From contig CALFXJ010000038.1 in assembly GCA_937958105.1 (NCBI GenBank), forward strand, positions 55,555 through 119,554: a DNA stretch of 64,000 bases, given 5' to 3'. Of the stretch, positions 13,243 through 41,883 are shown piece after piece. The position numbers were made by a program, and so were the translations under genes. The notes under the pieces were generated by a model that saw nothing but the letters and a program-made list of their open reading frames with translations, searched no databases and was not told the DNA's origin. Origin of the DNA: an uncultured Cellvibrio sp. (GTDB lineage Bacteria; Pseudomonadota; Gammaproteobacteria; Pseudomonadales; Cellvibrionaceae). Each line of letters begins with the position of its first letter. Position 1 is the first letter of the stretch.

Positions 13243-13363
13243 ATTCCTTACAATAAATCGTTCAGAGAAAAATCGATTAGGTGTGGTGCGAGAGCAAGGC
13301 GCATCAACAACATCGATAAACAGGTCGCTGGTTTTTCATTTACCTTGCTCTCCCTGATTGCCG

Positions 13364-25080: not shown

Positions 25081-25557
25081 ATGTCAGCCATTACCCAACT
25101 AACCAGTACAGTCAATGCATTGCGATTAAAATTTACTAATAATGAGCATGCTCTGCACACCGCCAGCCAAGCCGCTGCCACCATTAACGCCGGCCCTTCG
25201 AACCCCGCTCGCCATCATGGCTGGGATCACTTTCTTCCGAAGGTTGAGGCTAATCCAGAATTTGCAAAAACCATGGCGAAAGATGTGGCTTTTATTCCAG
25301 ACAAGCTCTTAGTCAATTTGAATGAGGCTCCACCGCTCAATGATGCAGAAGCCTGGCGCAGATGGACAAACCAATCAGTCGAGTTTGATAACACCGCCGC
25401 GAAGGTAACAGAGCAAAGAATTGAGATATATAACGATATGAAACTCCACGGTTCTACAGATGCAGAAATCTTCAAAGCTCTAATAGAATTTAACCACTCC
25501 CTACCCATGGACTACCAGATCAAATCTGGATTGATAAAATTAAATGCTTATGCGTAA
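25081..25557 (+). CDS. Hypothetical protein (158 aa)
   Basis: GGAGG RBS before ATG 25081; no recognisable motif. Confidence 0.65.
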   Translation: MSAITQLTSTVNALRLKFTNNEHALHTASQAAATINAGPSNPARHHGWDHFLPKVEANPEFAKTMAKDVAFIPDKLLVNLNEAPPLNDAEAWRRWTNQSVEFDNTAAKVTEQRIEIYNDMKLHGSTDAEIFKALIEFNHSLPMDYQIKSGLIKLNAYA

Positions 25558-25677: not shown

Positions 25678-25890
25678 AGGATGTGCCGAGTGACTCTCTC
25701 AACAAGCAGCACAATCTAAAAAAGAAATAAAAAACGGTAACGAATTTCCATCCGTTACCGTTTACGTTTTACTGCTTGTAGAATTGTGTCGTTACTGCAA
25801 CACGTCAGGATCATTTAATAATGGATCATGCATCTCCGGGATCAACTGATCAGTTTGACCGGGACATTCGCTTTTGGAGGGATAGCCTTT
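25678..25890. repeat. Direct repeat copy A (partner-gene 3' end + terminator + downstream tail)
   Basis: Closely matches 28939-29152 (offset about 3,261 bp), including non-coding aggatgtgccgagtga...caagcagcacaatct...aaaaaacggtaacgaa. Confidence 0.92.
25721..25763 (-). terminator. Rho-independent terminator ending the minus-strand cassette
   Basis: Stem aaacggtaacgaa/tccgttaccgttt (25732-25763). The single mismatch becomes a G-U pair in minus-strand RNA, and a U-rich tail follows. Confidence 0.85.
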
Positions 25891-26841
25891 TTGCCAAGTA
25901 AGTTGTTTGGCGGTGAGCCAGCCTTTTACAACCGATGATTCCGTATCTTGTTTTTTATATTCCCCATCAATAAGTTTGTAATGAACAAGAAGCTCACCTA
26001 TTTTAAAGAAACCTGGCACGGGATCATTAACCAATTTTGATTGATAGAGCTTTCTCCACAACACAATGTCACGTGACTGACTGCTCTCAAAACCGCCAAA
26101 GTAAAGCTTTGATATAGACCGTAATGCGGGGTACAAAACTCTCCTGTCTTTCACTTCCAGTGTGGAATAAGCAATATACGCGGGGTCACTGGATTTATTG
26201 TTGGTCAATCCTGAGTTCTGAGCTTCTTCCTGGGAAAGTTCATCGCTCAGGTAGTAATGCGCGCTGAAAATTACGTTCTTCTTTTGCGGTGAAAAAACGA
26301 CAAAATCCTTGCCAATCGTTAATACGAGTTCTTGCTGTGCGTCTTCGTTAATATCACCATACCGCAATGGGTTGGCTTCCATACATCCAACACGATCTTT
26401 TAAATCTCCGGGAGACATAAAGTAGCTCGGTTCATAGTCGGGCACGATTGCCAAGGTATCTGTGCGATTAAACTGCTCGCCATAAGCGGCTGCAATGGCT
26501 TCAGTCGCTAGAGAGTCTTCTCCGCCGATTTTTAGATGTTCTGAGTAGGGTTCGAGAGACCATGAACCGATAAGATCTCGGCTAGAATAACGCGTTGCGT
26601 ATAACTTCATCCTCTCAGACAGCGAATACACAACGCCAGTATCTTCAGAATGAAGAAATGCTCTAACTACCGGGTCACCAACCGATCTTTGCCCTGTTCT
26701 AGCAACAGAAAGTGGCAAGCTTGTTTGAGCAAGCGTAGAAAGGTTCTCCATTGTTACCCCAACACCTTGACTCAAAGCCAATTCCTGCGAACTCACCGAT
26801 ATCGAAGCAAACAATACTGCTGATAAAAAACAATTCCTCAT
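25792..26841 (-). CDS. Exported partner protein, paralog 2 (putative immunity protein of the orphan cassette)
   Basis: Signal peptide MRNCFLSAVLFASISVSSQ; ATGA overlap with the orphan-tip stop; homologous to 29054-30046 with an identical last 32 aa. The longer ORF-track start (26940) is rejected. Confidence 0.75.
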   Translation of the reverse strand: MRNCFLSAVLFASISVSSQELALSQGVGVTMENLSTLAQTSLPLSVARTGQRSVGDPVVRAFLHSEDTGVVYSLSERMKLYATRYSSRDLIGSWSLEPYSEHLKIGGEDSLATEAIAAAYGEQFNRTDTLAIVPDYEPSYFMSPGDLKDRVGCMEANPLRYGDINEDAQQELVLTIGKDFVVFSPQKKNVIFSAHYYLSDELSQEEAQNSGLTNNKSSDPAYIAYSTLEVKDRRVLYPALRSISKLYFGGFESSQSRDIVLWRKLYQSKLVNDPVPGFFKIGELLVHYKLIDGEYKKQDTESSVVKGWLTAKQLTWQKGYPSKSECPGQTDQLIPEMHDPLLNDPDVLQ

Positions 26842-28884
26842 GGTATAGCCACCCCTGTTACACAATCTATACGCCCTACTGGAGCTATTGGAGGCACTGC
26901 CAAAGGGTCGCCAACAGCAGCATCCAATGCATGAACCCACGTAGTTCCATTAGTCCACTCATTCTCCCCATAAGCAAAACACCAAGGCTCCGTTGTTTCT
27001 ATCACACCGGCAACCGGTGGAGTCGCTGTTGGGTCAGCAGGAATATCCTGAATAATACCATCACCATTAACATCAACACCTAAACCGCCTTGCCATACAT
27101 AAGTCCTATAGGGAAGATTCAATTTATCCACATCATGCATCACTCGCATGGCATAACGCATGGATTCCGTATTAGCAAACAACTGCCGTTGCTGAGCTGT
27201 CCTCTGACGATAACTGAGCCCACGAGCAGTAATAAAGCTTGGGTCCAGAGGGGTTACCCTGTCCAATAACATATTGATCCAGGAGCGTCCTGTACCTCCA
27301 CCAAAAATTGCTGCCCCCTGGTTGTAACCACCTAACCCCTTCGCCAGTAATTCGTAATCATCATCCGTATGGTTTGTTCCCGTAACAACAGAAGACACTG
27401 CCGTTGTTTCTATTTTCCTCAAGGGTGTTGCCACTGGCCATTGATAAATATCCCGATAACTCCTGCCGCCTGTGGTAGCAAATGCTCGATAAAAACTACC
27501 GCCACCACCACCGTTCTGACGAGGGACATCATCAATTGCCAGCCATACCGCTTTGGCAATCAGATTATGACGTGCATCATAATGATTAACCGCACTCACG
27601 CCAGCCGCGGTATAACCGGTAACCTCTTCCGCTGCGCTGCCATTTCCATCCTGTGCGCTCCCACCATAAGTGTAAGTATTCAGTAACTGGTTAAAGCCTT
27701 TACTACCTCGCTCATCACCACCACCGACAATTATTCGATAGTCAGCTTGATGCCTACCATTGGCTTCCATTTGCGCCATAGCTTTGAGAATCTGATGTCG
27801 TTCAAAGGTAGAGCCTGTCAACGTCTGTATATTGCTGTGTCTGGCTGCTGTATATGTCGGCGGGATGTTAGCGAAGCTTGGTCCGCCAGGATAATTAACG
27901 ACGCCATCCCAAACCGCTTCCGCCGCCTGAATCGCATTACCAGCTTGTGCACTCGTTTGTCCGCTAGCATTCGGTTCAAGATTCGCGTAATTAATCGTAG
28001 CACTCCCCTGCCAATGTGTATGTGCCAATATAAAATGACGCCAATGCCTGCCTATTTCAGCGATGGGCTGTTCACCAGTTACCGGTCCAGTATGCATTTC
28101 TTGTGTTTCATAGACTACCGGGCCATAGCTGATGTAATTAAATCGTCCGACCATGCGCCCCACTGACGGCGTAGAAGTAACAAATCGGTTACGATCTGCA
28201 ACACCCAGTCTTACGCCATATACTCCTGGTTTAGCGCTGGGCGACATGCCAATATTCCACATTACCGCCTCCAACATCGCCACGTCGCTGCCCGTCATCG
28301 GATTACTTGGATTAGCGTGAAACTCACGAGTTTTTACACGAAAATTGGTCCGATAATCACGCGGTACGCGCAATCCATCAACACCTGATGGAATGGTATA
28401 GCGGGCATAGAGGCTCGCCTCAATACCAGTATCTGTGGTTTGGGTGCCCGCCCAGTTTGACCAGTCAGTATCACCATTGGCGTCGACCGGCTCCCAGTAA
28501 ATATTGCCGTCATACAGATTACCTTGGGAATCCTCCTGTACATAAGGAATGTTAGCCTCAACCAGTGCGCAGGCATCCGCTGTTGTGTTAGTAACGCCAT
28601 AACGACGGCAGAAACGCCCACGATGGCCAAAGCGCCACTCCAGCCGGGTTAATTCAGTTCCGGCTAATGACGGGGGAATATAGCGATAACGTAACCGCAT
28701 GCCACCCAAGGTCCGAACACTGGGTATTTCCAGCATCGTCGCCGGTGCATTGACCGGTGTGCCCTGCTCTCCCGTTTCAAGCAAGCCAAGGATTTCAATA
28801 TCCGTTTCCACAACCCCGTTGCGGTTTTCCGTGTCGCCCGGTACCTGGTAATACACATGCAACCCGTTGCGGGTAAAGGCCCAC
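26838..28884 (-). pseudogene. Start-less orphan C-terminal module (PG-binding + lytic-transglycosylase-like), paralog of residues ~942-1634 of the 30060-34964 protein
   Basis: Intact 681-codon frame beginning WAFTRNGLHVYYQVPG. No signal peptide or RBS; the ORF-track start (28973) falls in non-coding repeat DNA just after a terminator. Confidence 0.8.
28789..28884. repeat. 96-bp homology anchor, copy 2
   Basis: 92/96 identical to 32047-32142 by hand alignment. Confidence 0.95.
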
Positions 28885-28948
28885 AAAAATGCAGGAAAGC
28901 ATTTTTGCACGGCGAAGCCGCCCGCAGGGCGAGGCACAAGGATGTGCC
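28884..28948. other. Compact four-hairpin element at the cassette junction
   Basis: caaaaatgc/gcatttttg, cggc/gccg, gccc/gggc and ggcaca/tgtgcc in tandem. Confidence 0.7.
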
Positions 28949-29152
28949 GAGTGATTCCCTCGACAAGCAGCACAATCTGAAAGAAGAAATAAAAAACGGT
29001 AACGAATTTTCATTCGTTACCGTTTACGTTTTACCGCCTATTGATTTATTTCGTTACTGCAACACGTCAGGATCATTTAGCAATGGATCATGCATCTCAG
29101 GAATTAACTGATCAGTTTGGCCGGGACATTCACTTTTAGAAGGATAGCCTTT
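28939..29152. repeat. Direct repeat copy B (partner-gene 3' end + terminator + downstream tail)
   Basis: Matches 25678-25890. Confidence 0.92.
28981..29025 (-). terminator. Rho-independent terminator ending the main operon
   Basis: Perfect 13-bp stem aaacggtaacgaa-ttttca-ttcgttaccgttt (28994-29025) followed by a U-rich tail on the minus strand. Confidence 0.88.
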
Positions 29153-30046
29153 TGACCAAGTAAGCTGTTTGGTAGTAAGCCATGTTTTGATGGTGGCTTC
29201 TTCGGTATCCTGTTTCTGATATGTGCCTTCGATGAATTTATAATGACGCACAACTTCTTTTTTGAGTTCAAATCCTTTTATGGGATCTTCCTGTAAACGA
29301 GATTCGTATCGTTTACGCCAAACCAAAATATCAAGCTCCTCATCTCCATCAAAATCATCAAAATAAACTTTTGCATAAGCTCGACGACCTACCCCACCAA
29401 TACGCCCCAACGCATCAGAAAGGTATTGCACTTTGCTGCCCGGAGGTGCCTCCACAGAATCTTGCAGGGCCAATCGGGCAGAAAATTCAATGGCAGCAGA
29501 CTGCGGAGAAAACAGTATCCAATCAAGTTGCTGGTCATTCTTTCCCATGTAAATAACCAAACTATCCTTGCCATTATTTTCCAAAGCACCATATCGCAAA
29601 GGCGTATTCGCCAAGCAACCTAATGAGCTCGTATTAAGTAAACGTTCATGAGCATATAAATGCCAAACATCACCCTCTGAGGCACCTTCCATGTCATAAA
29701 TAGACGCAACTTCTTTATCGATTAACTCGGTAGGCCAGCGAGTGAGGAGCCAGCCCGGATTAAACTGCTTTGTATTTACGTTAAAAAATACCACCCTACC
29801 GTCTGCCTTTAATGCATAGTATTCACCATCAATATCAGATTGAATAAAAGCTAGCGGTGACGAAGTATTTTCTGGGCAAGGATTATTCCATCCACAAAAA
29901 GACGCTGCATACGGCAAGCTTGTGGCTGCAAGATCCATAATGGTTTGGTCATTAACGCTGACTCCCTTTTCCAGTTGGATTTGGGAATATACCGATGAGC
30001 AGGACAAAAGAAAGCTTATTGAAAATATATACAATATTGATTTCAT
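29054..30046 (-). CDS. Exported partner protein, paralog 1 (putative immunity protein of the full-length effector)
   Basis: Signal peptide MKSILYIFSISFLLSCSSVYSQ; GGAG RBS right after the upstream stop; paralog of 25792-26841. Confidence 0.8.
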   Translation of the reverse strand: MKSILYIFSISFLLSCSSVYSQIQLEKGVSVNDQTIMDLAATSLPYAASFCGWNNPCPENTSSPLAFIQSDIDGEYYALKADGRVVFFNVNTKQFNPGWLLTRWPTELIDKEVASIYDMEGASEGDVWHLYAHERLLNTSSLGCLANTPLRYGALENNGKDSLVIYMGKNDQQLDWILFSPQSAAIEFSARLALQDSVEAPPGSKVQYLSDALGRIGGVGRRAYAKVYFDDFDGDEELDILVWRKRYESRLQEDPIKGFELKKEVVRHYKFIEGTYQKQDTEEATIKTWLTTKQLTWSKGYPSKSECPGQTDQLIPEMHDPLLNDPDVLQ

Positions 30047-30059
30047 CAAATTACTCCAG

Positions 30060-33000
30060 TCATTGACAAGCTATTCTTCCGACAGCAGGATTAAGCATAC
30101 TTCCTATAGCAGCTGTCCGCACGTCGGCATATCTTCGCCCGGCCATCCACTCCTTCTCCCCATAGGCGAAACACCATTCAGGCTGCCCCGCATTGAGATG
30201 CGGCTGGCCGGTAACCGGGTCTGTCTGGGGATATCGAGCGCCCACCCAAATATAGGTAACAAATGGTAAATAACCACCGATATCTGCTTGAATCGTCCAA
30301 CTTTGTTGCTTGACACCTAGCCAGTAACCAAAATGGGTGGGGGAGAAATTGCCTGCCGGAGTGCGACGCGGCATACCTTGCAAAGCAGTAAAATATGAGT
30401 TGTTTCGTAGGTTGTTAGCATTGGCACCTTGATTATAAGCAATTACCGCTTTACCCAAGAGGTTGTAACCATCGTCGTGAGTGCTATTAAAAGCAATCCA
30501 GTTAGCTTGGTTACCGGCGCGAGAACATCGCGGACCGACCATATCGCCAGGTGCGGTTGTTTCATAACAGTATGACAGCGGAGTGTTTTGCTGAGGATGG
30601 GCAACCACATAATCAGGGGTAGTTTGGCCCTGTGTTGTGATGTAAGCGTTGTATAAACCTCGTGAGTATGTACAGGCACTGTCGGAAGCCGCAGCGAGAA
30701 ACGCCAGCGCACTGTTTACCGGGTGGTAAAGATTAATATTTTCCACGCCATTGGTCAGGAAACCTCGATTGGATTCACAACTGTTTTCCGCCCCGTACAT
30801 ACGTTTCCAAACAATGTGGTTATAACCCATACTACCCTCTTCATCTCCACCCCCTTCGTTAATACGGTAGGGGCTAGGTTGGTAATTGGAGATATTGTTA
30901 CCCCAGAAAATTGCACCATTACCAACCTCTTGGAGTATCCATGATTTGAATACTCCCTCACGAGCAATGCCTTGGGCAACTTGGGGGAACTCAGCGACGA
31001 TATCGTCATGGATTGCTTGCGTGTACGTTGCCTCTAATGTGTAGGTAGCAGGTAAATTACCCGAGTAAGGTATGTCGCCGCCCTGATCCGCTAACTGTTC
31101 GATATCCACCCAAAGACTTGCGGGAAGTTGCCGATAAGTAAACACAGGATGTGCTGCATACGTTTCCACAGCCCGAAAATAATGGGACCAAATCCGTTGC
31201 AAGCGTCTCAAGGTAACATTGTTCACAATACCGCTTACATCAGTTGTTGTATTAGTGCCTGCTAAATCGTTGATATTGACATTCCTGGCCTGAAACCGAC
31301 GAATCATACCCTCCAAAGAAACTTGTCCTACCAGACATTGGGCACCCCATCCGTAGTAATACATACCCCTATTGTCAGCAGGAGCTCCCTGACAATTTTG
31401 AGTCCAGTTACTTAACCCGCTGCCATTTCGAGAAGAGTTTATCCTCGCTCCCAAGTATCCTGAGTTGTAGTTTGGATTCGCTCCATACTGCGGACTAATC
31501 CCCAACTGCCACAACATCGCCTCCAGCATCGCCACATCACTGCCTTCCATCGGATCAGCCGGGTCTGGCCTCAGTTCGCGGGTCTTGATATGGAAAGTCT
31601 GCTCATAAGTGCGCGGAACACGGTTGCCTCCAGAGCTGGAGGGGATGGTGTAATGTGCTTTCAGGCTAGCTTCAACACCTGTATCAGCCGTTTGCGTACC
31701 CGCCCAGTTGGACCAGTCCACGTTCGTGGTACCTGCCATGGGTGGTGCAGGTTGGTCCGTCAGGGGTTCCCAATACACATCGGCGGTGTCACCGGGTGGG
31801 ATGTTGGTTTGTTTGTAAACTACACCCGCATCAACAACCGTGCACTGCCCTTGCGGATCATCAACCCCATAGCCCTGGCAGTAGCGGCCACGTTTGTTGA
31901 TGGTCCAGTCGACGTAGGTAATTTCTGTACCGGCAAGTGATGGCGGTATATAACGATAACGCAAGCGCATGCCACCCAAGGTACGTACTACCGGGTCCTG
32001 AACCGGCATAACACCGGAACCCGCTTCACCCGGCTCAAGCAGGCTCAGGATTTCAATATCCGTTTCCACAACCCCGTTGCGGGTTTCCGTGTTGCCCGGC
32101 ACCTGGTAATACACATGCAACCCGTTGCGGGTGAAGGCCCACTCCCACAATGTATTCCCAGCGTCGTGGTTGAGGTACAAACGGATCGTGAGCAGATCAG
32201 TCGGGTCGAGATAATCAAGTTGCTCAAGATTGTCAAAACGAATTTCGCCCGTGTCTGTCACGGTAACCTTGAGTTCATGAGCACCAAGACTCATCACCAG
32301 TTCCTGTTCGCCCTCAATAGCGGTAAGGCGTGGAACGGTTTGTTGTACCAACGAATAAAACACGGAGACCAGATCATCGTCGCTGCGAATGGTGGGGATC
32401 TTGCCGTCGATTAATTGTTCCGTCAGTAATTCCTGTTCGTGGGCTTGGCCGCTTTCATCGGTATACTCACGCAGGATGCTATCGATCTCCAATTGGAACT
32501 GACTGAACTGGTATTCAGGGCGGTAGGTCCAGCCGTAGCTGGGCAAGGGCTTGGTCGGTTCGGTATCAATGACTTCCGCATCGTAGGCTTTCCTGGCCTG
32601 ATTCCAGGCAGAGAAGACTTGCCATTCCTTATCTTCGTCGTGTAACGGCACAAGGAAGGGAGTCAGCACGCGGGGGCGGTACTGCATCATATCCGAGGCA
32701 GCCGCGCCCCCCATGTCAAAACTGGGATTTTCGTCCTTCGGGGTGCCGGATACGTGGATGTAATAGTGTTCCGGCACCGTCAGGTTACTCCTGACCTGCA
32801 GAACTTGCATATTACGCCCTGCGGCAATGGGAAAGTTGGACAGGTCATTGTCCGTCACTGCCTGAATAAGATTGGGCGTTACGATCTTGGCCAAACGTCC
32901 AGTTAGACCATATTGCTCGCCGTGGTCTACACTCAATCCTTCCGGCAAAGGACGGCCATCATGATCAAACCATTCGGTGTAGATGGTAATGCGATCATCC

Positions 33001-34964
33001 GATACCCGGCCTGCGCCTTCCGCGCCAATAATATTATTCCGGCTTTCCCGCTGACGGGTTAAGCCGTTGTCATGCGTATAATCGCGCTCCGCCCAGACTT
33101 TCAGGTTCGGCGGTCGCAGGACAATGTCTTTTACCGGCACATTTAAGTAGCCACCGGGATTTCGGCTGGCATCGCTTAGCTGAACACGTTGGGTATCCAT
33201 GTAGCCGGTAGCGCGATTAATAACAACCAGGCGTATCCACTCGCCGGGTTTCAAATGATCCGACTCCTGGCTTTGGAATGAAGCAGTTAGTTTATTGCGT
33301 GAGGCCCAGTCGTCCCAACTACCGGAACGATTTGTGCCACCTATATTGAGATTACCGTCGCGCGGGCCGCGCAGCATGACCCGGTAGAAGACGTTGTCAT
33401 CGCCCTGCCCCATCCCCACTTGAGCACGCCCGTCAATCTCCGCATCGCGCAATCCCCTCCGCTCCATCACCAACTGGCCGGTAGATTCACGGAATACGAG
33501 AATGTCCGTGTTTTTAAAATCATCTTCGCTGATGCTGCTGAGAAGACCGTTGCTTTTGAATGCATTGCTTCCTTCGCGTTTTTTTTCTCTGTCGGCTTGA
33601 CGTATAACATTTGGCTGGCCAGTTGTTCCTCTCGAACTAAAATAAACGCCTTGGACACTGCCTGCGGGATCAGCCTCAAATATCGTTTCCACACTTCCAT
33701 CCGGTTGTGGTTGTTGCACCAGTTTACCCAAGACAGCCGTGTCGGGCTTTCCATCACCATCAAAGTCATAAAACGCTTGCGCGACAGGCGTAACAGAAGA
33801 CGCCTGCACTACATACTCAGTCGTATCTCCAATCGGAATAGGCACAACCGAGCCAGGTGTTCCCCCCGGATTGCCAATCAATATACGCCCAGTCAGAAAC
33901 ATTACATCCACCCGCAAATCAATGGCGTAATTGGGTGTGGACATGGTGGCAAGTGAGGCTATCGTATTAGTGTAGGCCATGGCGCCGCCCAGGCTCATGT
34001 CATACATTGCAGCGCCGTTACAATAGCTCCAATCCTGCCGACGCAGATAGTAAGGCAACACCGGTGCACCATTTGGGCTGAAGTTGGTGTAATAAAGTTC
34101 CGCCCATACATCCGTAGTGTGTTCAAAACTGAAACCCGGGCATGGAGGCAAACGAAAATTAAGACGGTACTTTCCCTCTCTGTCGGTCACATCCACGCCG
34201 CCCGGATAAACCCATTCATCCACATACACTTTTACGAATGGAACTGGCCCAAAAATTTGGTCTTCAGATCCGCGTGTGTAGCCTCCATAAAAGTCCTGTG
34301 CCTCTTTGGGATCTCCGAAGAAGCCGGACCGGGGCGCAATATTAAGATGTGAAAAAGCTATAATTCGCCCCTGCTCGTTCATGACAAGACTGACAGCATC
34401 ATCCGGTGGTGATGGCTGCGTAAGGTCAACACTGAAGGACATTAATATCAGTTGATCCGGGGCTGTCGTCAGGCGGTTACTGCGCCCGCGGACCAGCACA
34501 CTCTTCTGATGCTCCAACAATCCTGGTTTGTCAATAGATTCGCCACTTACCGTTAAAAAGTTGGCTTGCTTGTATTGTTCCCCACTCAACAATTGCGCGT
34601 CTTGCGCCAGAGGATTGCTAGGACGCTCAGTAAACTCTTTCCATCGATTATATTCACTTGTGTATTCGTAGGCGCTGATGATTTGTAGACGGTCAACCTT
34701 GTCCGCATATTCCCCCAAAGCCACTTCACCAGCCTCGGATCCATCCTCGTTGTACTGAACAAGGATAGGTTGACCTTTCTCATCCAAGGCCATTGCACGG
34801 GCCATCACTGCACCGTGTTTATAAACCTGGTTCTGGTAATAAGCAATCGCAAAGACAGTGTGTGCAGATAGCGTCAATGCAACCGCAACAGCAAACCGGT
34901 AAACAGGCGGTATACATTCCTTAACTAACTTCATTTTCATGTGGTTATGGTTCCCTGACATCAT
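30060..34964 (-). CDS. Large Sec-exported modular protein: ~940-aa N-terminal stalk + C-terminal PG-binding/lytic-transglycosylase-like module (putative polymorphic muralytic effector)
   Basis: Signal peptide (RFAVAVALTLSAHTVFA); GSDVAMLEAMLWQLG...IRRFQARN...SGIVNNVTL (PG_binding_1-like); SWILQE / GSMGYNHI / IAYNQG (SLT-like motifs I-III). Confidence 0.75.
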   Translation of the reverse strand: MMSGNHNHMKMKLVKECIPPVYRFAVAVALTLSAHTVFAIAYYQNQVYKHGAVMARAMALDEKGQPILVQYNEDGSEAGEVALGEYADKVDRLQIISAYEYTSEYNRWKEFTERPSNPLAQDAQLLSGEQYKQANFLTVSGESIDKPGLLEHQKSVLVRGRSNRLTTAPDQLILMSFSVDLTQPSPPDDAVSLVMNEQGRIIAFSHLNIAPRSGFFGDPKEAQDFYGGYTRGSEDQIFGPVPFVKVYVDEWVYPGGVDVTDREGKYRLNFRLPPCPGFSFEHTTDVWAELYYTNFSPNGAPVLPYYLRRQDWSYCNGAAMYDMSLGGAMAYTNTIASLATMSTPNYAIDLRVDVMFLTGRILIGNPGGTPGSVVPIPIGDTTEYVVQASSVTPVAQAFYDFDGDGKPDTAVLGKLVQQPQPDGSVETIFEADPAGSVQGVYFSSRGTTGQPNVIRQADREKKREGSNAFKSNGLLSSISEDDFKNTDILVFRESTGQLVMERRGLRDAEIDGRAQVGMGQGDDNVFYRVMLRGPRDGNLNIGGTNRSGSWDDWASRNKLTASFQSQESDHLKPGEWIRLVVINRATGYMDTQRVQLSDASRNPGGYLNVPVKDIVLRPPNLKVWAERDYTHDNGLTRQRESRNNIIGAEGAGRVSDDRITIYTEWFDHDGRPLPEGLSVDHGEQYGLTGRLAKIVTPNLIQAVTDNDLSNFPIAAGRNMQVLQVRSNLTVPEHYYIHVSGTPKDENPSFDMGGAAASDMMQYRPRVLTPFLVPLHDEDKEWQVFSAWNQARKAYDAEVIDTEPTKPLPSYGWTYRPEYQFSQFQLEIDSILREYTDESGQAHEQELLTEQLIDGKIPTIRSDDDLVSVFYSLVQQTVPRLTAIEGEQELVMSLGAHELKVTVTDTGEIRFDNLEQLDYLDPTDLLTIRLYLNHDAGNTLWEWAFTRNGLHVYYQVPGNTETRNGVVETDIEILSLLEPGEAGSGVMPVQDPVVRTLGGMRLRYRYIPPSLAGTEITYVDWTINKRGRYCQGYGVDDPQGQCTVVDAGVVYKQTNIPPGDTADVYWEPLTDQPAPPMAGTTNVDWSNWAGTQTADTGVEASLKAHYTIPSSSGGNRVPRTYEQTFHIKTRELRPDPADPMEGSDVAMLEAMLWQLGISPQYGANPNYNSGYLGARINSSRNGSGLSNWTQNCQGAPADNRGMYYYGWGAQCLVGQVSLEGMIRRFQARNVNINDLAGTNTTTDVSGIVNNVTLRRLQRIWSHYFRAVETYAAHPVFTYRQLPASLWVDIEQLADQGGDIPYSGNLPATYTLEATYTQAIHDDIVAEFPQVAQGIAREGVFKSWILQEVGNGAIFWGNNISNYQPSPYRINEGGGDEEGSMGYNHIVWKRMYGAENSCESNRGFLTNGVENINLYHPVNSALAFLAAASDSACTYSRGLYNAYITTQGQTTPDYVVAHPQQNTPLSYCYETTAPGDMVGPRCSRAGNQANWIAFNSTHDDGYNLLGKAVIAYNQGANANNLRNNSYFTALQGMPRRTPAGNFSPTHFGYWLGVKQQSWTIQADIGGYLPFVTYIWVGARYPQTDPVTGQPHLNAGQPEWCFAYGEKEWMAGRRYADVRTAAIGSMLNPAVGRIACQ
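32047..32142. repeat. 96-bp homology anchor, copy 1 (internal to the effector gene)
   Basis: Encodes WAFTRNGLHVYYQVPGNTETRNGVVETDIEIL; 92/96 identical to 28789-28884. Confidence 0.95.
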
Positions 34965-37900
34965 TGCTGCAGTGCACTGCGCAATTGCTGTAACGTTTTT
35001 GTGCCGTCTACAACATCTTGTAGAAGCGGCTGCTGGGAAAGATCAACTAATGCATAGCCTATGTAATCCAGTGTATTGATCTGGACCTTTCCTACACTTA
35101 TTATCCTGTAGTTTTCGATCTGCCCGATACCAACTGGCTCGATAACTTCTCGATCCGGGTTGTAACCCAGCAACACAACATATTTTATTTCCGGAGAAAT
35201 GTAATCGTAGGTGCCGGCTAGCATCGGGACTTTAATGTCGATACTAATGGGATTTTCCACCGCAACTCCCCGCGGCTGGCCAGCGAACATCCACTGCGGC
35301 CAAGCACCGGGAGTTACAGCTGCATTAAGCTGGCTGTAAGGCATGAATTGCACCTGCAGATTGCCGGAGGTCCGGCCGTTTTTAAACAATAATCTGGCTC
35401 CGGTTAAATCCAGCCGTAATTCATCGCCTGCCAGGCTGACGAGCCCCTGATCGGCGCTGATTAACTGGAACGGGATATCAGGGTGAAGCTCTGGTAAGCG
35501 TGACAAGCTGATTTCATTCTTGCGTCCTTGTTGCAGGTTAATAGTTCGCACCTGTGTCCCGTATCCCGGCACGGCAAAATCGGGATTAATGATCAGCTCA
35601 TGACGGCCACCAGGAATTTCATTACCAGCAGCCTCTTGAAAGCCAAAGGCAAAGCTGCCGTCATTATTTGTCGTGGTGGTGCGATTAAGAGACGTCAGCT
35701 TTACCGGCACTCCTGATAACGGCTGGCCGAATTGATCAACTACACCACCGATAATAAAAGTAGGCAGCTGACGTATTTTGAAATTGAATCGACCCAGTTC
35801 GTTACCATCGTAGATTACATCTACATAAACATCTGCATTAAAGCCGAAATGACGATTCGCGTAATATGCAAAACTCTGGTTGCCAGGTAAAACAGACACT
35901 GCACCTGGGACTATCTCGTTGTCGCGGTGCACTTCCTGAAGCTGATAGCCCTGCGCGGTCAGGAAATCAGCACCGGATGGATCAAGATTCAAGTAGGTAT
36001 TACCATGCAGCGTTTCACTGACCGTTATCGTCAATTTGGAAGGATCGATCGCTTTATTGAAGTAAAGCTCAACAGGCTGGTTTGGCTCGCGGTTATTTGC
36101 GTTATTCTCGGGCGAGTAGCGTACCAGTTCCACCGGTATCGCTGTCTCATCAGTCACTCGTACCTGACGCGTCGTAGACGCAACGATTATATTCTGTGCG
36201 TTTAAGACTTGATAATTGAGCGTGTATGTACCAGCTTGTGGAGGAACTGTAACGTCTCCGCTGGCCAAGGTCCCAACAACGGTCAGCTCTGTTTGTTGAG
36301 TATTTACTACAACTACTACACGATGCCCTTCACCGATTTCCGTAAGTCGAGCTGCAGCCTGGACTTTTATGGGATCACCTCGCCCCAGAAGCTCGGCATT
36401 TTCACCAGGCAATAACGGTGTAATCGAGGCTTGTGCTGTGGATTGAAAAATATATGCCACACTGGTCCGGTTGCCACTTATGTCGTACGCATTAAAGACC
36501 AATTGGGCTTGTGCGCCCGCGGCTAAAGATACAGGCAGGGTGAAGTCGTATTGGCCGACGCTTGCTCCCGGGCGTAATACCAGGGGCTGGTCATTAACAG
36601 TGATGCTGGACAGATTGTCATCACTTACTGTGCCATTTACAACGAAGGGTGATTGGATAACATTGTTAACTGCAGGGCTGGGCTGCAGGCTTGCATCAAG
36701 TATTAGCCGTGGCGGTGTACCGTCACGATGATACTGCGCAACAAGCCTGGAGGTCTTACCAAGTGCATCGCGAGCTTCAACCGTCACATCGACAGTGTCT
36801 ATGCCTTCAGGAAACGAAATTACCTGTTCGAAATAATAATCCTGCAAATTACCGGCTGGGGCAGAAACCGCCATACCATTTACTGTCACCTCAGCGAAAC
36901 CCGCGTGACTAATGACTCGCCCTTTGAAGCGAAAACTGCTATCGCGCAACTGGCTGCCATTAGCAGGCGCGACTATCGAGAGCCTAGGCTCCTCAATAGC
37001 ATCCGGATCTTCCGGTGTGTAGGTAATCGTCAATGTTTGAGAGTCTGCACCAGCAAGCGACTCAACCCGCAGAACAAATACATTCTGTCCTTGTTGCAGG
37101 CGAATATCTGGCAAAGCGAAAGCATATAAGCCTTCCTGACCGGTACCATCCGGGGTTATCTGCCATTCGTTAATGTAAAAACGTATAGCATCCAGAGCTA
37201 ACAGGGTCTCCACCTGGCCCTTGATAGTCACGGTTTCTTCGGATATTACCGCACCATTAGCAGGGGAAATATTTACGAGACGCGGCGGGGAACTACGTTG
37301 CACCTGATGAGTAGCCTGAGTCATATTGCCAGAAAAATCCGCTGCCACCACTGTCAGCAGATTCATCCCGACCGCCAGCGGTACTTCCGCCATAAACTGA
37401 TTCGCTGTAATTGTTGCTGTAACAGCTGATGCAGGAAACCGGTCCGAGGTTACAGTCACGCTTTGAATACCGCTGTATGGCTGAGCCGGATCAGATACAG
37501 ACCCTCGCAATACAACTGTGGGGGATTGCACCATTTCATCGGGGGTATTGGATATTTGCAGTAATGGAGCAACACGATCCGGGTAATCGTTAACATCGTC
37601 AGGATTGGTCCCTGCTTGAAGTTCTTCTTCATTGGAAAAGCCGTCACCATCACGATCCGGGTCGCTGTTATCACCGATACCATCACCATCCATATCAGAT
37701 GATTCATTGGGATCATCCGGGAATGCATCTTCATCATCAGGAATACCGTCGCCATCACGATCGGGTTTTGAATATTTGATATTCAACGATTGGCTAACAC
37801 TACCATCCGGTGAAGTTGCTTCTAACGTTAATACGTTATTTCCTTCCTGCAGCATCACCAAGAAAGAGAATAAATAAGCCCCAGCGGTGCCAGACAGGGG

Positions 37901-40111
37901 ACGCAGTGTATCGTCAAGATAAAGCTGTACATCATCTAACGACCAGGCAGTTATGACTTCACCAGTGACTGTAACAGTCGGAGCTGACACTTCAGAGCCA
38001 TCAAACGGTCCGCTAACGATTAATTGAGGAAGTGATATTCTGTGAACAAGAATAGAATCTACCGTTATGTTGCCGGAAAAATCTCGTGCCTCAACTTGAA
38101 TAAGGTTGCCCCCCAGCACCAGCGGGACACTTGCAGAGAAAGTTTGCTCATTGAGCGCAGCCGTAATCTGGTGGCCTTGTGTAGTGGACAGGACTACCGA
38201 TGCGATACCGCTATTTTCCTGTACCGGATCAATAACATTGCCTGTGATGAGGATTTCGCCAGCATCTATTGGCGTATCCGGCTGGTCAATCTGTAACTGC
38301 GGGGGAGTCAGATCTGGAGCAGGAGAAGTTCCTTGGCAGAGTTCACCAAAGTCAGCTAGTGAGACTGCGTTTGGCGTATAGGTCACATGACTGTCACTAT
38401 CTAAGGTAATTCCTTTGCCGTTCACTGCACCAAAGATCTGGGTTTGATAGTTCAACCTTACTTGACCACGACTATAAACCAGGGCGTGAGCGCTGCTGCT
38501 AGTATGAAATTCAATATCACCATAGCCATAGATAATGAGTTTGGCCGAATCCTCGGTGTTGCCATTAAGTTGAGCAGACCATGGAATATATAAGGGGTCC
38601 CTGATAAATAATCGCGCCGTTCCATTACCCACTACCTCTATCCTGGTGTCTGCTTCAAGTGCTAGACGCTCGATCCAATAATCCCCGGCGGGCAATCTTA
38701 GAGTGCTGCCGTAGCCTACATTCATTTCGCGAATCAGGTACGCATCAGGTTGAGCGGTAAAGTTTACTGTTGCATCAGCGGCAAGTGTGACCTGTCCGTG
38801 CTCCAGCTCATCGCTACCATTAATCGTGAATATGGATGACCAAGGCACCATTATCGTATTAGTTGCCAGTGTTGACTTAAAATCTCCCGCAGTTAATGTT
38901 TGGCTGGGAACGCCTGTCGCAACGCATTGAGTATCCTCACAGCTCTGAGCCGATCCACCCATAGTAATCACATCAACTGCTGATAACTGATGTGATGAGC
39001 CGCTGCGTAACTGCGCATTCTGCTGAAAGCTTATGGTTCCCACGTCGCCATGAGCCTGGAGTCCATTACCGAATGCCGCACGACATATGTTTCCAACAGG
39101 AGGTGGTGAGCTGCCCACAGGTGGCTCCTGGCTCCCATCACCACCTGTTCCTCCACAAAATGTGGATAATTCAGTCTGAGCAAGCGATCCGACGTCTGCA
39201 TAAATTTTTCCGGAGGAGCCAAGATTAGCCTGATGAAAACTGGCAACGCCGTAGAGCTTGGCTTGCGCGATACTAAGCCTGTTTTTACTGTAGCTCACCG
39301 CAGATACTTCAGAACCCGCCTGAAGGGTCAGATCTCCGTGGGTATAGATAAATAGTTTGCTGGCATTATCCGGGCTGCCTGCCGATGTCATGTTTGCATA
39401 GGACTGCCAGGGAAATGTTAGTCCGTTCTTAACGTAGAGCTGGGCAGTTCCCTCACCTACCACGTTGATTCGGCTCCCTGTGGCCAATGTCAGATTATCA
39501 ACCCAATAAATACCTGGCGATAAATTTAACGTAGCTGCATAACCAAGATTTAATTGATTGATATGGTATGAAGTTGTAATGGGTGAAAAAGTTAAAACTC
39601 CTTCTCCATTAACAGTAACGGATCGAAATTGATTATATTGATGCGTGCCTAAGGTAGCACTGCCTTGATAGACCACCTGGTAGTCAACACTACTGGTGTT
39701 TTCTGGAAAATCTATGTTAACAGCCTCAGCGTGTTGCGCAGAGGCACTGCAGCGGCGTGTACCACAACTGGGCAAAACGGACCAAGCAGAGTCATTGACG
39801 CGTGCCACCATTAATGATTCTTCTGCGGCATCCAACAGCTGTGCGTTCCAATCAAAACTGATTTCACCATCCGGCTGATGGCTCTGAACAGCCACGGGAA
39901 AAATGCTTTCACATGGTAGAGATGCTCCGAATACCGGGCTGCAAAGCGTTAGAAAAACCCATCCCATCAATTCAGAAATGCCCTTTTTCCTGGCATTGCT
40001 AAATGACCATCCCTCGAGAGCCGAGTCCTGTCTATTTAAATAATTTTCCATACGACCCTGTCTCATGTAGCCCAAGAGAGACCCTGCTCTCGCTGATAGT
40101 AAAGAACCCAT
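34961..40111 (-). CDS. Large exported Ig-like/TSP3-repeat protein with a duplicated N-terminal domain
   Basis: Repeated Ig-like units (PPQLQIDQP, PRLVNISPANG, PRLSIVAPANG); Ca-binding DxDxDG repeats at about 37580-37770; SbsA-Ig-like ELVRYSPENN; carboxypeptidase-regulatory-like GGVVDQFGQPLSGV. Overlaps the next gene (ATGA). True start uncertain. Confidence 0.8.
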   Translation of the reverse strand: MGSLLSARAGSLLGYMRQGRMENYLNRQDSALEGWSFSNARKKGISELMGWVFLTLCSPVFGASLPCESIFPVAVQSHQPDGEISFDWNAQLLDAAEESLMVARVNDSAWSVLPSCGTRRCSASAQHAEAVNIDFPENTSSVDYQVVYQGSATLGTHQYNQFRSVTVNGEGVLTFSPITTSYHINQLNLGYAATLNLSPGIYWVDNLTLATGSRINVVGEGTAQLYVKNGLTFPWQSYANMTSAGSPDNASKLFIYTHGDLTLQAGSEVSAVSYSKNRLSIAQAKLYGVASFHQANLGSSGKIYADVGSLAQTELSTFCGGTGGDGSQEPPVGSSPPPVGNICRAAFGNGLQAHGDVGTISFQQNAQLRSGSSHQLSAVDVITMGGSAQSCEDTQCVATGVPSQTLTAGDFKSTLATNTIMVPWSSIFTINGSDELEHGQVTLAADATVNFTAQPDAYLIREMNVGYGSTLRLPAGDYWIERLALEADTRIEVVGNGTARLFIRDPLYIPWSAQLNGNTEDSAKLIIYGYGDIEFHTSSSAHALVYSRGQVRLNYQTQIFGAVNGKGITLDSDSHVTYTPNAVSLADFGELCQGTSPAPDLTPPQLQIDQPDTPIDAGEILITGNVIDPVQENSGIASVVLSTTQGHQITAALNEQTFSASVPLVLGGNLIQVEARDFSGNITVDSILVHRISLPQLIVSGPFDGSEVSAPTVTVTGEVITAWSLDDVQLYLDDTLRPLSGTAGAYLFSFLVMLQEGNNVLTLEATSPDGSVSQSLNIKYSKPDRDGDGIPDDEDAFPDDPNESSDMDGDGIGDNSDPDRDGDGFSNEEELQAGTNPDDVNDYPDRVAPLLQISNTPDEMVQSPTVVLRGSVSDPAQPYSGIQSVTVTSDRFPASAVTATITANQFMAEVPLAVGMNLLTVVAADFSGNMTQATHQVQRSSPPRLVNISPANGAVISEETVTIKGQVETLLALDAIRFYINEWQITPDGTGQEGLYAFALPDIRLQQGQNVFVLRVESLAGADSQTLTITYTPEDPDAIEEPRLSIVAPANGSQLRDSSFRFKGRVISHAGFAEVTVNGMAVSAPAGNLQDYYFEQVISFPEGIDTVDVTVEARDALGKTSRLVAQYHRDGTPPRLILDASLQPSPAVNNVIQSPFVVNGTVSDDNLSSITVNDQPLVLRPGASVGQYDFTLPVSLAAGAQAQLVFNAYDISGNRTSVAYIFQSTAQASITPLLPGENAELLGRGDPIKVQAAARLTEIGEGHRVVVVVNTQQTELTVVGTLASGDVTVPPQAGTYTLNYQVLNAQNIIVASTTRQVRVTDETAIPVELVRYSPENNANNREPNQPVELYFNKAIDPSKLTITVSETLHGNTYLNLDPSGADFLTAQGYQLQEVHRDNEIVPGAVSVLPGNQSFAYYANRHFGFNADVYVDVIYDGNELGRFNFKIRQLPTFIIGGVVDQFGQPLSGVPVKLTSLNRTTTTNNDGSFAFGFQEAAGNEIPGGRHELIINPDFAVPGYGTQVRTINLQQGRKNEISLSRLPELHPDIPFQLISADQGLVSLAGDELRLDLTGARLLFKNGRTSGNLQVQFMPYSQLNAAVTPGAWPQWMFAGQPRGVAVENPISIDIKVPMLAGTYDYISPEIKYVVLLGYNPDREVIEPVGIGQIENYRIISVGKVQINTLDYIGYALVDLSQQPLLQDVVDGTKTLQQLRSALQQ

Positions 40112-40120
40112 GTGAAAAAC

Positions 40121-41020
40121 TTAGTCAGCTTGAGAGATGATCTCAACCTGAACCTTTTCTCGCGCCTCTTGTGAAGCATTCTTAACAGCCTCGCGTAGCA
40201 TTATCGGAGCCAAACGCTGGCGAATATCCCCGCTCACCTCAGCTAAAGATTTAGGAGGGGTTTTGACGAGATTGGTTACTCGTACCAGGTGTAATTGTCC
40301 ATCAATATAAAAAACATTGGACGTATTGCCTTTATCAAGGGCATTAACTTGCTGCTCTAAGACCTTATTCAACAGGCCTTCTGTGACCCTTGCCTTTTGA
40401 TGCCTGAGCCCCCACCGCTCATCCCACTTTGCAGCAGAAGACGACCAGTTGGTGGTTTGTCTTATTTCTGGAATGCTCCCCAGCAGATCATCTCGCATAG
40501 CATCTGAAATATTGGCTGGCGCAACCAACATTTCATAATCACGGATATCTACCGAACCAAACTCCTCCGGGTGCTTCTCATAATATTCATTAATCATCTC
40601 GGGCGTGACGGGCGTTGGTGTTACATGAGCCTGAAGATATTCTTTTACATACAGCTCTTCCTGATAAACTCGAGTCAGATTTGCAATTTTCTGAAGCTGA
40701 TCTTCAGAAAGCTCCTGCAGAGCCAGCTGCTTCATAGCGCGACTCGCGATCAGGCTATCAAGTACTTTTTGACGGAGGCTTTCATCGAAATTGAACATGT
40801 CTGCCTGGCTGAACGTGCGCTCTATAGAGAATAGCAGGTCATCTTCAGTAATCTCTTCACCGTTAACCTTGGCCAGGACCAGAGAGGATTGGGCTGTATC
40901 CTGCCCCTCCTGCTTCTGGTCACAACCAGTCAACCCGATACTCAAGAAAATGAGCAGAGCTGATATTCGAGGCATAGTCACCCGAGAGACTTCGGTGGGG
41001 ATTTTCCTGTACAACAACAT
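40121..41020 (-). CDS. Lipoprotein SurA/PrsA-like chaperone with a degenerate parvulin domain
   Basis: Lipobox LTGC; LAKVNGEEITEDDL; LAEVSGDIRQRL; lacks the HIL and GGDLG motifs. The start may be 40975. Confidence 0.75.
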   Translation of the reverse strand: MLLYRKIPTEVSRVTMPRISALLIFLSIGLTGCDQKQEGQDTAQSSLVLAKVNGEEITEDDLLFSIERTFSQADMFNFDESLRQKVLDSLIASRAMKQLALQELSEDQLQKIANLTRVYQEELYVKEYLQAHVTPTPVTPEMINEYYEKHPEEFGSVDIRDYEMLVAPANISDAMRDDLLGSIPEIRQTTNWSSSAAKWDERWGLRHQKARVTEGLLNKVLEQQVNALDKGNTSNVFYIDGQLHLVRVTNLVKTPPKSLAEVSGDIRQRLAPIMLREAVKNASQEAREKVQVEIISQAD

Positions 41021-41023
41021 AAA

Positions 41024-41839: not shown

Positions 41840-41883
41840 GATTTATCACCTTATTCAATCTGCATATCTAAATAAAAATACTG

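What the first reader, a model, noticed from the sequence alone, without database searches (positions are those of the whole stretch)
25792..29152. Partner proteins share an invariant 32-aa C-terminal tail under pure synonymous divergence
Both end in KGYPSKSECPGQTDQLIPEMHDPLLNDPDVLQ. Hand alignment of 25792-25890 with 29054-29152 gives 9 nucleotide differences, all synonymous, and no amino-acid change, while the rest of the proteins are only patchily similar. This points to purifying selection rather than recent copying. The tail may be a docking, sorting or secretion motif binding a conserved component (stalk, PPIase or giant protein), with the variable body providing tip specificity. Classical immunity proteins usually lack such a shared tail.
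Basis: partly seen in the sequence, partly recalled or inferred. Interest (0 to 1): 0.65.

Follow-up and report, generated by a model that had tools for sequence, protein, structure and literature searches.

The report
Invariant tail on polymorphic-cassette partner proteins
Two neighbouring secreted proteins share an identical 32-residue tail, which is the hallmark motif of a large uncharacterised family of probable immunity-like proteins and also part of a DNA repeat that keeps gene cassettes exchangeable.

Summary
The two minus-strand genes (25792-26841 and 29054-30049) are 36% identical overall. They end in the same 32 residues, with 9 nucleotide differences, all synonymous.

- **Purifying selection is real.** The tail is the most conserved part of a family of more than 400 proteins. 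The last 15 residues are 96-98% conserved across genera, with saturated synonymous sites.
- **"Rather than copying" is wrong.** The similarity continues 114 nt past the stop codon, through a terminator hairpin. The tail's codons are significantly younger than the gene bodies (22/31 vs 36/88 identical codons). The same concerted evolution is seen in nearly every genome with several copies.
- **Cassette structure.** Tail plus flank forms a 3' homology block. Together with a 5' junction block, it brackets a variable cassette made of a C-terminal (CT) module and its partner gene, as in orphan toxin-immunity arrays.
- **Docking idea disfavoured.** Intact partners with unchanged tails occur in genomes that lack the whole system. 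The tail never occurs on other proteins. AlphaFold models it as an ordered part of the fold.

The best reading is an immunity-like periplasmic protein with an invariant functional or structural tail and a variable specificity region. The CT module's activity remains unknown, because the lytic-transglycosylase idea failed the tests.

The parts
25792..26841 (-). Partner A gene (349 aa, Sec signal peptide). Its ATG overlaps the stop of the 711-aa ORF (ATGA).
29054..30049 (-). Partner B gene (331 aa from TTG, 330 aa from ATG; signal peptide with a possible lipobox LLSC)
   Evidence: P0001
25795..25890 (-). Tail A, the last 32 codons of partner A
29057..29152 (-). Tail B, the last 32 codons of partner B
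25678..25920 (-). 3' homology block, copy A: last 43 codons, stop, and 114 nt of non-coding flank. It is 88% identical to copy B.
28939..29182 (-). 3' homology block, copy B
25732..25763 (-). Terminator-like hairpin after partner A (14-bp stem, 4-nt loop GGAA, T-run)
28994..29025 (-). Terminator-like hairpin after partner B (14-bp stem, loop GAAA, T-run), upstream of the orphan CT module
28777..28884 (-). 5' homology block (junction WAFTRNGLHVYYQVPG...), orphan copy. It is 93.5% identical to 32035-32142.
32035..32142 (-). 5' homology block, copy inside the 1634-aa gene (starts at residue W942)
26838..28973 (-). 711-aa ORF, an orphan copy of the ~690-aa C-terminal (CT) module. Homology to the 1634-aa protein starts at 28884. 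It is preceded by the terminator, with no promoter-like site in between.
30060..34964 (-). 1634-aa protein: N-terminal module (residues 1-941) fused to CT module (residues 942-1634, 30060-32141)
34961..63999 (-). Upstream operon context: a 1716-aa protein (DUF7305, Glucodextran_B, Big_7, TSP3), two SurA-like PPIases, and a giant protein of more than 7371 aa (TIG, Big, TSP3, RCC1 propellers)

Best explanation
The tail is the invariant C-terminal segment of an uncharacterised family of Sec-exported, beta-rich, FG-GAP-like proteins of about 330 aa. These proteins are encoded directly downstream of a polymorphic C-terminal (CT) module of about 690 aa. Two processes act on the same 100 bases.

(1) Protein level (conservation shown; mechanism inferred). 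Strong purifying selection holds the tail constant across genera. AlphaFold2 models it as an ordered part of the fold. It is probably pinned to the body by a disulfide between the two invariant cysteines, C145 and C308. I propose that it forms the constant functional face of an immunity-like protein. In this reading it is a binding hot spot for the conserved core of the CT module, while the hypervariable N-terminal third sets cognate specificity. This is the 'dual recognition' arrangement of colicin DNase immunity proteins.

(2) DNA level (shown). Within each genome, the tail-coding DNA plus the downstream terminator and flank is a shared 3' homology block. This block is younger than the gene bodies. 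Together with a 5' block at the CT junction, it brackets the variable CT+partner cassette. Duplication, gene conversion or double-crossover exchange therefore keeps the tails of all copies identical, which is concerted evolution.
For: Family-wide conservation peaks in the tail. It is 0.96 for residues 316-330 in 44 sequences and 0.98 in a matched 9-genome set. The best blocks elsewhere are 0.88 in CT, 0.81 in the N-terminal module and 0.74 in the 1716-aa protein.

Between genomes, pS is saturated in the tail while pN is 0.14 (last 32 codons) or 0.07 (last 17 codons), against 0.48 in the body.

The AlphaFold2 model has mean pLDDT 89.6 and tail pLDDT 82-94, with isolated beta-bridges in the tail. 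C145 and C308 are invariant.

The tail-only search of 1.84 billion representatives found 163 hits. All but one odd repeat protein (P0245) belong to this family, and the motif is C-terminal in them.

DNA level: a 244-nt block at 88% identity includes 114 nt of non-coding DNA and a conserved 14-bp terminator hairpin. Only two copies exist in the genome. Codon identity at identical residues is 22/31 in the tail and 36/88 in the body (p=0.006). The between-genome baseline is 0.41-0.44, and within-genome tails score 0.77. Paralogs share lineage-specific tail variants in Marinagarivorans, Marinimicrobium, Bermanella, Oceaniserpentilla, Reinekea and others.

Cassette and immunity-like context: CT+partner pairs and arrays with truncated N-terminal fragments occur in many genomes. 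A natural mosaic is seen in L074. Scars keep only the tail end. Intact stand-alone partners with unchanged tails occur in genomes lacking CT and the N-terminal module.
Against: No activity is established for the CT module. There is no Pfam, NCBIfam or PADLOC hit. No PDB relative was found by sequence or fold beyond an Ig-like N-terminal sandwich. The SLT-like motifs fail profile comparison. 'Toxin' and 'immunity' therefore rest on architecture alone.

No complex could be modelled, so contact between the tail and CT is untested. Nothing in CT is as conserved as the tail. One CT (L040) seems to lack the near-invariant Glu, yet its partner keeps the tail.

No known delivery system is linked to the locus.

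The flank is more conserved than the tail's synonymous sites (p=0.002). A single copying event followed by neutral drift does not explain this.

Several of the genomes that lack the system are MAGs and could be incomplete.
Confidence: 0.55

Rival explanations
1. The tail is purely a structural element. It is the closing segment of an incomplete propeller-like fold, held by a disulfide, with no interaction role. Its conservation reflects folding constraints only. The within-genome DNA identity is a by-product of segmental duplication.
For: AlphaFold2 models the tail as ordered, with high confidence and beta-bridges to the body. The Cys pair is invariant. The tail occurs only in this family. It is retained unchanged in genomes without any partner system.
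Against: Structural segments are rarely this much more conserved than the beta-core they pack against (0.96 vs 0.4-0.7). Surface-type residues (E, H, D, N, D, P, D) are invariant. This reading does not explain why orphan copies are kept intact.
Confidence: 0.25
2. The partner is not an immunity protein. It is an obligate co-factor, chaperone or tip subunit of the CT module. The tail binds a conserved part of CT (for example the GSDVAMLE.MLWQLG helix or the WCFAYGE.EW...C end) to assemble a two-protein tip.
For: Gene order is strict and the genes are translationally coupled (ATGA overlap). Both proteins look exported and disulfide-bonded. CT carries conserved blocks.
Against: Intact stand-alone partners occur in genomes with no CT at all, or only CT remnants of about 46-150 aligned residues. 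A subunit without its partner protein would be expected to decay.
Confidence: 0.12
3. One reading: the tail is a docking, sorting or secretion motif that binds a conserved component of the same operon (stalk, PPIase or giant protein).
For: The motif is extremely conserved and located at the C-terminus. The operon encodes two SurA-like PPIases and giant repeat proteins.
Against: At least 10 of 12 tested genomes with stand-alone partners lack the N-terminal module and any intact CT, yet keep the tail at 14-17 of 17 residues. The motif is on no other cargo. It has no hydrophobic or basic features of known C-terminal sorting signals (from the sequence). One subfamily carries a 16-residue extension after the motif, so a free C-terminus is not required. 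The PPIases and the giant protein were not searched for directly in those genomes.
Confidence: 0.06
4. The identity is only a recent duplication or a chance pattern, with no selection on the tail.
For: The DNA block continues into non-coding sequence.
Against: All 9 differences are synonymous (P<=1e-5). The tail is conserved across genera with saturated synonymous sites.
Confidence: 0.02

Closest known systems
Orphan CT/immunity modules of Rhs and CDI (CdiA-CT/CdiI) loci (Koskiniemi et al. 2014, PMC3967940)
   Same: A large protein has a constant N-terminal part and a variable C-terminal module demarcated by a conserved junction. A small cognate gene lies directly downstream. Promoter-less orphan CT+partner modules sit further downstream and carry fragments of the constant region, which allow recombination.
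   Different: There is no Rhs/YD, VENN, haemagglutinin or T6SS feature. The CT modules are all homologous (25-50% identity) and very large (about 690 aa), and their activity is unknown. The downstream gene carries an invariant tail. That tail, with the terminator flank, gives a second, 3' homology arm. Described orphans rely on 5' homology only.
Orphan immunity gene arrays in Vibrio cholerae T6SS clusters (Kirchberger et al. 2017, PMC5361080)
   Same: Intact immunity-type genes are retained without their effector, sometimes beside effector remnants. Loci are mosaic through frequent recombination and horizontal transfer.
   Different: That model invokes a 5' anchor plus illegitimate recombination at the 3' end. 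Here the 3' end is itself a conserved anchor inside the partner gene. No T6SS context is present.
Colicin E DNase / Im immunity proteins, 'dual recognition' (own knowledge: Kleanthous and co-workers)
   Same: Homologous immunity proteins combine a conserved binding hot spot, which contacts conserved toxin residues, with a variable segment that sets specificity. This is the proposed logic for the invariant tail plus variable body. In E-colicin operons the variable killing-domain and immunity segment is likewise flanked by conserved DNA on both sides.
   Different: The fold, size (about 85 aa, cytoplasmic) and toxin type are unrelated. In colicin operons the conserved 3' flank is a separate lysis gene and does not lie inside the immunity gene. 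The analogy here is untested.
Silent-cassette gene-conversion systems such as Neisseria pilE/pilS (own knowledge)
   Same: Variable cassettes are bracketed by conserved sequence on both sides. Silent copies lack a promoter. The conserved arms show concerted evolution.
   Different: Those systems vary one surface protein for antigenic variation. Here the cassette holds two genes, and stand-alone partners argue for a protective role.

Membership tests
Polymorphic toxin-immunity system with orphan modules (CDI/Rhs/MafB-like architecture) | Constant N-terminal region and variable C-terminal module separated by a conserved junction | tested here: met
   The 711-aa ORF aligns to residues 942-1634 of the 1634-aa protein at 34% identity. 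The junction block is 108 nt at 93.5% identity. The junction is a gene boundary in Thalassolituus.
Polymorphic toxin-immunity system with orphan modules (CDI/Rhs/MafB-like architecture) | Small cognate gene immediately downstream of each CT, plus orphan CT+partner modules carrying 5' fragments of the constant region | tested here: met
   CT-partner adjacency holds in most of 53 loci. Arrays with N-terminal fragments ending at residue 941 occur in Bermanella, Marinimicrobium, Reinekea, Saccharospirillum and others.
Polymorphic toxin-immunity system with orphan modules (CDI/Rhs/MafB-like architecture) | CT module is a toxin (known toxin domain or demonstrated toxicity) | tested here: inconclusive
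   There is no Pfam, NCBIfam or PADLOC hit. No PDB relative was found by sequence. Foldseek found only Ig-like N-terminal matches. Toxicity cannot be tested with these tools.
Polymorphic toxin-immunity system with orphan modules (CDI/Rhs/MafB-like architecture) | Partner neutralises its cognate CT | not testable with these tools
   No complex prediction or experiment was available. Indirect support comes from stand-alone intact partners beside CT remnants.
Polymorphic toxin-immunity system with orphan modules (CDI/Rhs/MafB-like architecture) | Linkage to a known delivery system (T5SS/TpsB, T6SS, T7SS, Rhs shell, etc.) | tested here: not met
   The operon proteins hit only PPIase, Ig-like, TSP3, RCC1, DUF7305 and Glucodextran_B domains. 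Only this window was examined.
GH23 / SLT lytic transglycosylase (for the CT module) | Match to the SLT profile or fold with catalytic Glu motif | tested here: not met
   PF01464 finds 6 genuine SLT genes in this genome but not the CT modules. hhalign of the CT profile against SLT domains gives 2.5-4% probability, aligning only the GYNQG/AYNAG motif. Foldseek returns no lysozyme-like hit. PG_binding_1 matches 1 of 14 members at E=0.07.
FG-GAP / VCBS beta-propeller repeat proteins (for the partner) | FG-GAP repeat profile matches and a propeller fold | tested here: inconclusive
   FG-GAP_3 matches 20 of 44 family members and FG-GAP matches 11 of 44 at E<=0.1. Neither window protein matches. Foldseek hits to propellers have TM <=0.25.
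C-terminal sorting or secretion signals (GlyGly-CTERM, PEP-CTERM, LPXTG, T9SS CTD) | Motif followed by a hydrophobic helix and basic residues, or a dedicated CTD fold, present on many unrelated cargo proteins | tested here: not met
   The tail is acidic and has no hydrophobic helix (from the sequence). The tail-only search finds it on one family only. It is modelled as ordered against the body.

The most novel reading that the evidence does not exclude
The partner family may be a new type of periplasmic immunity protein. Its invariant C-terminal tail would be a universal hot spot that plugs the conserved core of a new, very large polymorphic effector module. The tail's coding DNA, with the adjoining terminator, would have been co-opted as a dedicated 3' recombination anchor. 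Together with the 5' junction anchor, this would make the effector-immunity pair a two-armed cassette that can be swapped cleanly by double crossover. The system would be delivered by an undescribed apparatus of giant protein plus PPIases, not by T5SS, T6SS or Rhs.
Probability: 0.25. Interest if true: 0.75.

Novelty: new variant of a known kind. Interest (0 to 1): 0.5.

Why it matters
If this reading is right, it defines a signature motif (…TWxKGYPSxSEC…LIPEMHDPLLNDPDVL) for a family of more than 400 unannotated proteins in marine Gammaproteobacteria. The motif marks a previously undescribed polymorphic cassette system. It would let such loci, their orphan arrays and stand-alone 'immunity' genes be found directly in genomes and metagenomes.

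It also gives a clean example in which one 100-nt stretch is under protein-level purifying selection and also serves as a recombination arm. That warns against reading 'all differences synonymous' as evidence against copying.

The two cognate pairs in this window are a ready-made experimental system for testing specificity (variable body) against common recognition (tail).

Tried and rejected
- **Lytic transglycosylase or PG-binding identity of the CT module.** This was suggested by the motifs QES..HWG, GSxGFNQI, GYNQG and GSDVAMLE.MLWQLG. It was rejected as unsupported. PF01464 does not hit the CT modules. hhalign gives 2.5-4% probability. Foldseek returns no lysozyme-like fold. PG_binding_1 matches only 1 of 14 members, at E=0.07.
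- **Sequence relatives in the PDB for the partner and CT.** None were found.
- **Fold relatives of the partner.** Only weak propeller-like hits appeared, with TM <=0.25.
- **NCBIfam and PADLOC.** Nothing was found for the partner, CT or the 1634-aa protein.
- **Same locus in close relatives.** The family is absent from all 18 same-genus genomes. Metagenome contigs with the identical protein show the same arrangement as the window.
- **Pfam on odd neighbours of stand-alone partners.** No hits.
- **Model coordinates.** No multimer prediction was available.
- **Mirror-tree test of CT/partner co-evolution.** I considered it and dropped it, because physical linkage would give a correlation whether or not the proteins interact.
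Full report
**1. The observation**

The finding lies on the minus strand. Partner A (25792-26841, 349 aa from MRNCF…) and partner B (29054-30049, 331 aa) are 36% identical overall. Both end in KGYPSKSECPGQTDQLIPEMHDPLLNDPDVLQ. In the last 32 codons there are 9 nucleotide differences, all synonymous (Sd=9, Nd=0). If 9 mutations fell at random, the chance that all were synonymous is 4e-7 to 1e-5.

**2.

- **The similarity continues past the stop codon.** A single block of 244 nt at 88% identity (25678-25920 = 28939-29182) covers the last 43 codons and 114 nt of non-coding DNA. It includes a terminator-like hairpin with a 14-bp stem, a 4-nt loop and a T-run. This hairpin is detected in both copies, at 25732-25763 and 28994-29025. 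The genome holds only these two copies.
- **The upstream genes are paralogous too.** The 711-aa ORF (26838-28973) matches residues 942-1634 of the 1634-aa protein (30060-34964) at 34% identity. The match begins at a sharply conserved junction, WAFTRNGLHVYYQVPG…, which is 108 nt at 93.5% identity (28777-28884 = 32035-32142).

The locus therefore consists of two cassettes, each a CT module plus a partner gene. Each cassette is bracketed by a 5' and a 3' homology block. The second cassette sits behind a terminator, with no promoter-like site in between.

**3. The family**

- **Size and host range.** The partner has more than 400 homologs, mainly in marine Gammaproteobacteria. These include Marinagarivorans, Cellvibrio, Bermanella, Oleispira, Thalassolituus, Reinekea, Saccharospirillum, Alcanivorax, Microbulbifer and Aeromonadaceae MAGs. 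No Pfam, NCBIfam or PADLOC family covers the two window proteins. Twenty of 44 relatives give weak FG-GAP-type repeat matches.
- **Conservation gradient.** Conservation rises steadily from about 0.25 at the N-terminus to 0.96 over residues 316-330 (IPEMHDPLLNDPDVL). In a matched genome set the tail scores 0.98. It is then the most conserved 15-mer among the partner, CT, N-terminal module and the 1716-aa protein. The next best is the CT block GSDVAMLEAMLWQLG at 0.88.
- **Selection between genomes.** Synonymous sites in the tail are saturated (pS 0.87). pN is 0.14 for the last 32 codons and 0.07 for the last 17 codons, against 0.48 in the body. Purifying selection on the tail peptide is therefore firmly supported.

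**4. Selection is not the whole story**

- **Paralogs share lineage-specific tails.** In almost every genome with two or more copies, the paralogs have tails identical at 29-32 of 32 residues while their bodies are highly diverged. They agree even at positions that vary across the family. Examples are QTDQ here, QKGQ…HDV in Marinagarivorans, HDA in Oceaniserpentilla, and IPELHD…VLH in an Aeromonadaceae MAG.
- **The tail's codons are younger than the body's.** I measured codon identity at identical residues. Between genomes it is 0.41 in the tail and 0.44 in the body, which is the saturated baseline. Within genomes it is 0.77 in the tail and 0.57 in the body. In this window it is 22/31 in the tail against 36/88 in the body. 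Fisher's test gives p=0.006 for tail against body, and p=0.59 for the body against the baseline.
- **Conclusion.** The tail DNA has a more recent common ancestor than the rest of the genes. This is concerted evolution by duplication, gene conversion or cassette exchange. 'Purifying selection rather than recent copying' is a false alternative, because both apply.
- **Flanks in other genomes.** Downstream flanks are shared between internal array members at 0.6-0.88 identity. Twenty-six of 65 flanks hold a hairpin plus a T-run.

**5. Evidence that these cassettes recombine**

- Arrays of two or three CT+partner units occur in many genomes. They carry truncated N-terminal-module fragments that all end at the junction.
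- In Thalassolituus the junction is a gene boundary, giving separate 1074-aa and 720-aa genes.
- Metagenome contig L074 is 95-98% identical to the window on both sides. A 383-nt segment, covering the CT end and the first ~95 partner codons, is replaced.
- Scars keep only the end of the tail. In L013 an N-terminal-module fragment is fused in frame to the last 19 residues. L025, L056 and L059 hold similar scraps. P0240 carries a scrap of the CT C-terminus after the tail.
- Many matches lie at contig ends. Metagenome contigs break inside or just past the homology blocks.

**6. What the tail does**

- **It is not a portable tag.** All but one odd repeat protein (P0245) belong to this same family, and the motif is C-terminal in them. 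One subfamily has a 16-residue acidic extension after the motif, so a free C-terminus is not essential.
- **It is modelled as ordered.** The AlphaFold2 model of partner B has mean pLDDT 89.6 and pTM 0.86. The tail scores pLDDT 82-94 and forms isolated beta-bridges. Two cysteines, C145 and C308, are invariant, and C308 is the Cys of the tail's 'SEC'. Given the signal peptides, a disulfide pinning the tail to the body is likely. This is an inference, because I could not read the model coordinates.
- **It does not need the operon.** I tested 12 genomes in which the partner stands alone. Five have no detectable CT or N-terminal module, including the isolate Reinekea marinisedimentorum. Five have only CT end-remnants of about 46-150 aligned residues. 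One has a ~290-residue CT fragment. Only one has the full system. In all of them the partner ORFs are intact and the last 17 tail residues match the consensus at 14-17 positions. That is the same range as in genomes with the full system.
- **What this implies.** These results argue against docking to a stalk, PPIase or giant protein of the same cell. They match the behaviour of orphan immunity genes (PMC5361080; PMC3967940).
- **Preferred mechanism.** I favour an immunity-like periplasmic protein whose invariant tail is a structural and functional hot spot, with specificity set by the variable N-terminal third. This is analogous to dual recognition in colicin DNase immunity proteins (own knowledge). 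The analogy is inferred and has not been shown.

**7. Limits**

- **CT activity is unknown.** The SLT/PG-binding resemblance is at motif level only. It failed the profile search, the profile-profile comparison and the fold tests.
- **The locus is an acquired island.** The family is absent from 18 same-genus genomes. The operon is about 47% GC against about 60% in the flanking DNA. No close comparison was therefore available.
- **One observation is unexplained.** The non-coding flank is more conserved than the tail's synonymous sites (about 14% vs 47% diverged, p=0.002). Either the flank is itself constrained, for example by the terminator or some further element, or it was homogenised more recently than the tail.

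**8. Verdict**

The feature is real and statistically solid. It is the signature motif of an uncharacterised family, and it also forms part of the 3' homology arm of a polymorphic two-gene cassette. The closest known systems are the orphan toxin-immunity modules of Rhs, CDI and T6SS loci. This one differs in four ways: the second (3') anchor lies inside the partner gene, the tail is invariant, the effector module is unknown, and no known delivery system is linked to it. I rate it a new variant of a known kind, of moderate interest.

Noticed in passing
window 25678-25791 and 28939-29053: The non-coding flank after each partner gene is more conserved than the synonymous sites of the tail (about 86% identical overall and 95% across the hairpin, against 47% divergence at synonymous sites; p=0.002). 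About 52 nt beyond the terminator (ATTTCTTCTTTCAGATTGTGCTGCTTGTCGAGGGAATCACTCGGCACATCCT) are also conserved, with no evident function.
   Followed up: partly
window 28860-28960 (minus strand): The stretch between the shared flank and the start of CT homology folds into several stable hairpins (MFE -43.3 kcal/mol, z = -3.6). It lies exactly at the cassette breakpoint.
   Followed up: partly
L074 (JGI metagenome 3300009095), 294-676: This contig is a natural mosaic of the window locus. It is 95-98% identical on both sides, but the CT end and the first ~95 partner codons are replaced by unrelated sequence. This suggests the partner N-terminus and the CT C-terminus are exchanged together.
   Followed up: partly
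L004 (Marinagarivorans algicola) 6462-14420: An array of three partner genes is separated by repeated pairs of a 97-aa and a ~456-aa ORF (81% and 66% identical between repeats). These ORFs are unrelated to the CT module and have no Pfam hit. Only a 52-residue CT remnant precedes one partner.
   Followed up: partly
L013 5647-6345; L025 8868-9098; L056 1674-1865; L059 10001-10054; protein P0240: These are recombination or deletion scars that keep only the last 17-38 tail residues. In L013 the tail end is fused in frame to an N-terminal-module fragment. P0240 has a scrap of the CT C-terminus (GRIDCQTGADL) fused after the tail. Three of the scars break just before LIPEMHD.
   Followed up: partly
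protein P0245 (487 aa): This protein is made of eight 58-aa tandem repeats. Each repeat resembles the start of the tail (…TKQLNYCWSYPWKEICRGDQTTQLL…, 50% identical over 28 aa). It may be a translated DNA repeat derived from tail-coding sequence, or a chance match.
   Followed up: no
proteins P0198, P0229, P0248: A subfamily of the partner proteins carries an acidic extension (EGVDPETMTFIEEEED) after …DPEVL.
   Followed up: no
L008 8123-9121 and L045 8691-9677: A conserved ORF of ~330 aa (MPKPR..…STPYYHC..RCVRRAFLC…, no Pfam hit) lies just upstream of stand-alone partner genes in Oleispira and Reinekea. It may be a mobile-element gene.
   Followed up: partly
L021 5491-5901 (Microbulbifer aestuariivivens): A stand-alone partner lies downstream of a fragment ending in …GYNRYSYVKGNPLTLTDPTGY, which looks like the end of an Rhs core, and of small ORFs. 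This suggests it sits in a mixed orphan toxin/immunity array.
   Followed up: no
window 24700-64000 vs 1-24700: The whole operon is about 46-50% GC, against 55-63% in the upstream flank. The partner family is absent from 18 genomes of the same genus, so the locus looks like a horizontally acquired island.
   Followed up: partly
protein P0069 (Thalassolituus hydrocarboniclasticus): UniRef labels this family member 'Tle cognate immunity protein…' (truncated in the output). No Pfam match supporting that label was found among 44 members.
   Followed up: partly
window 25075-25557 (+): A 160-aa ORF with no family match lies just beyond the end of the cassette array on the opposite strand.
   Followed up: no
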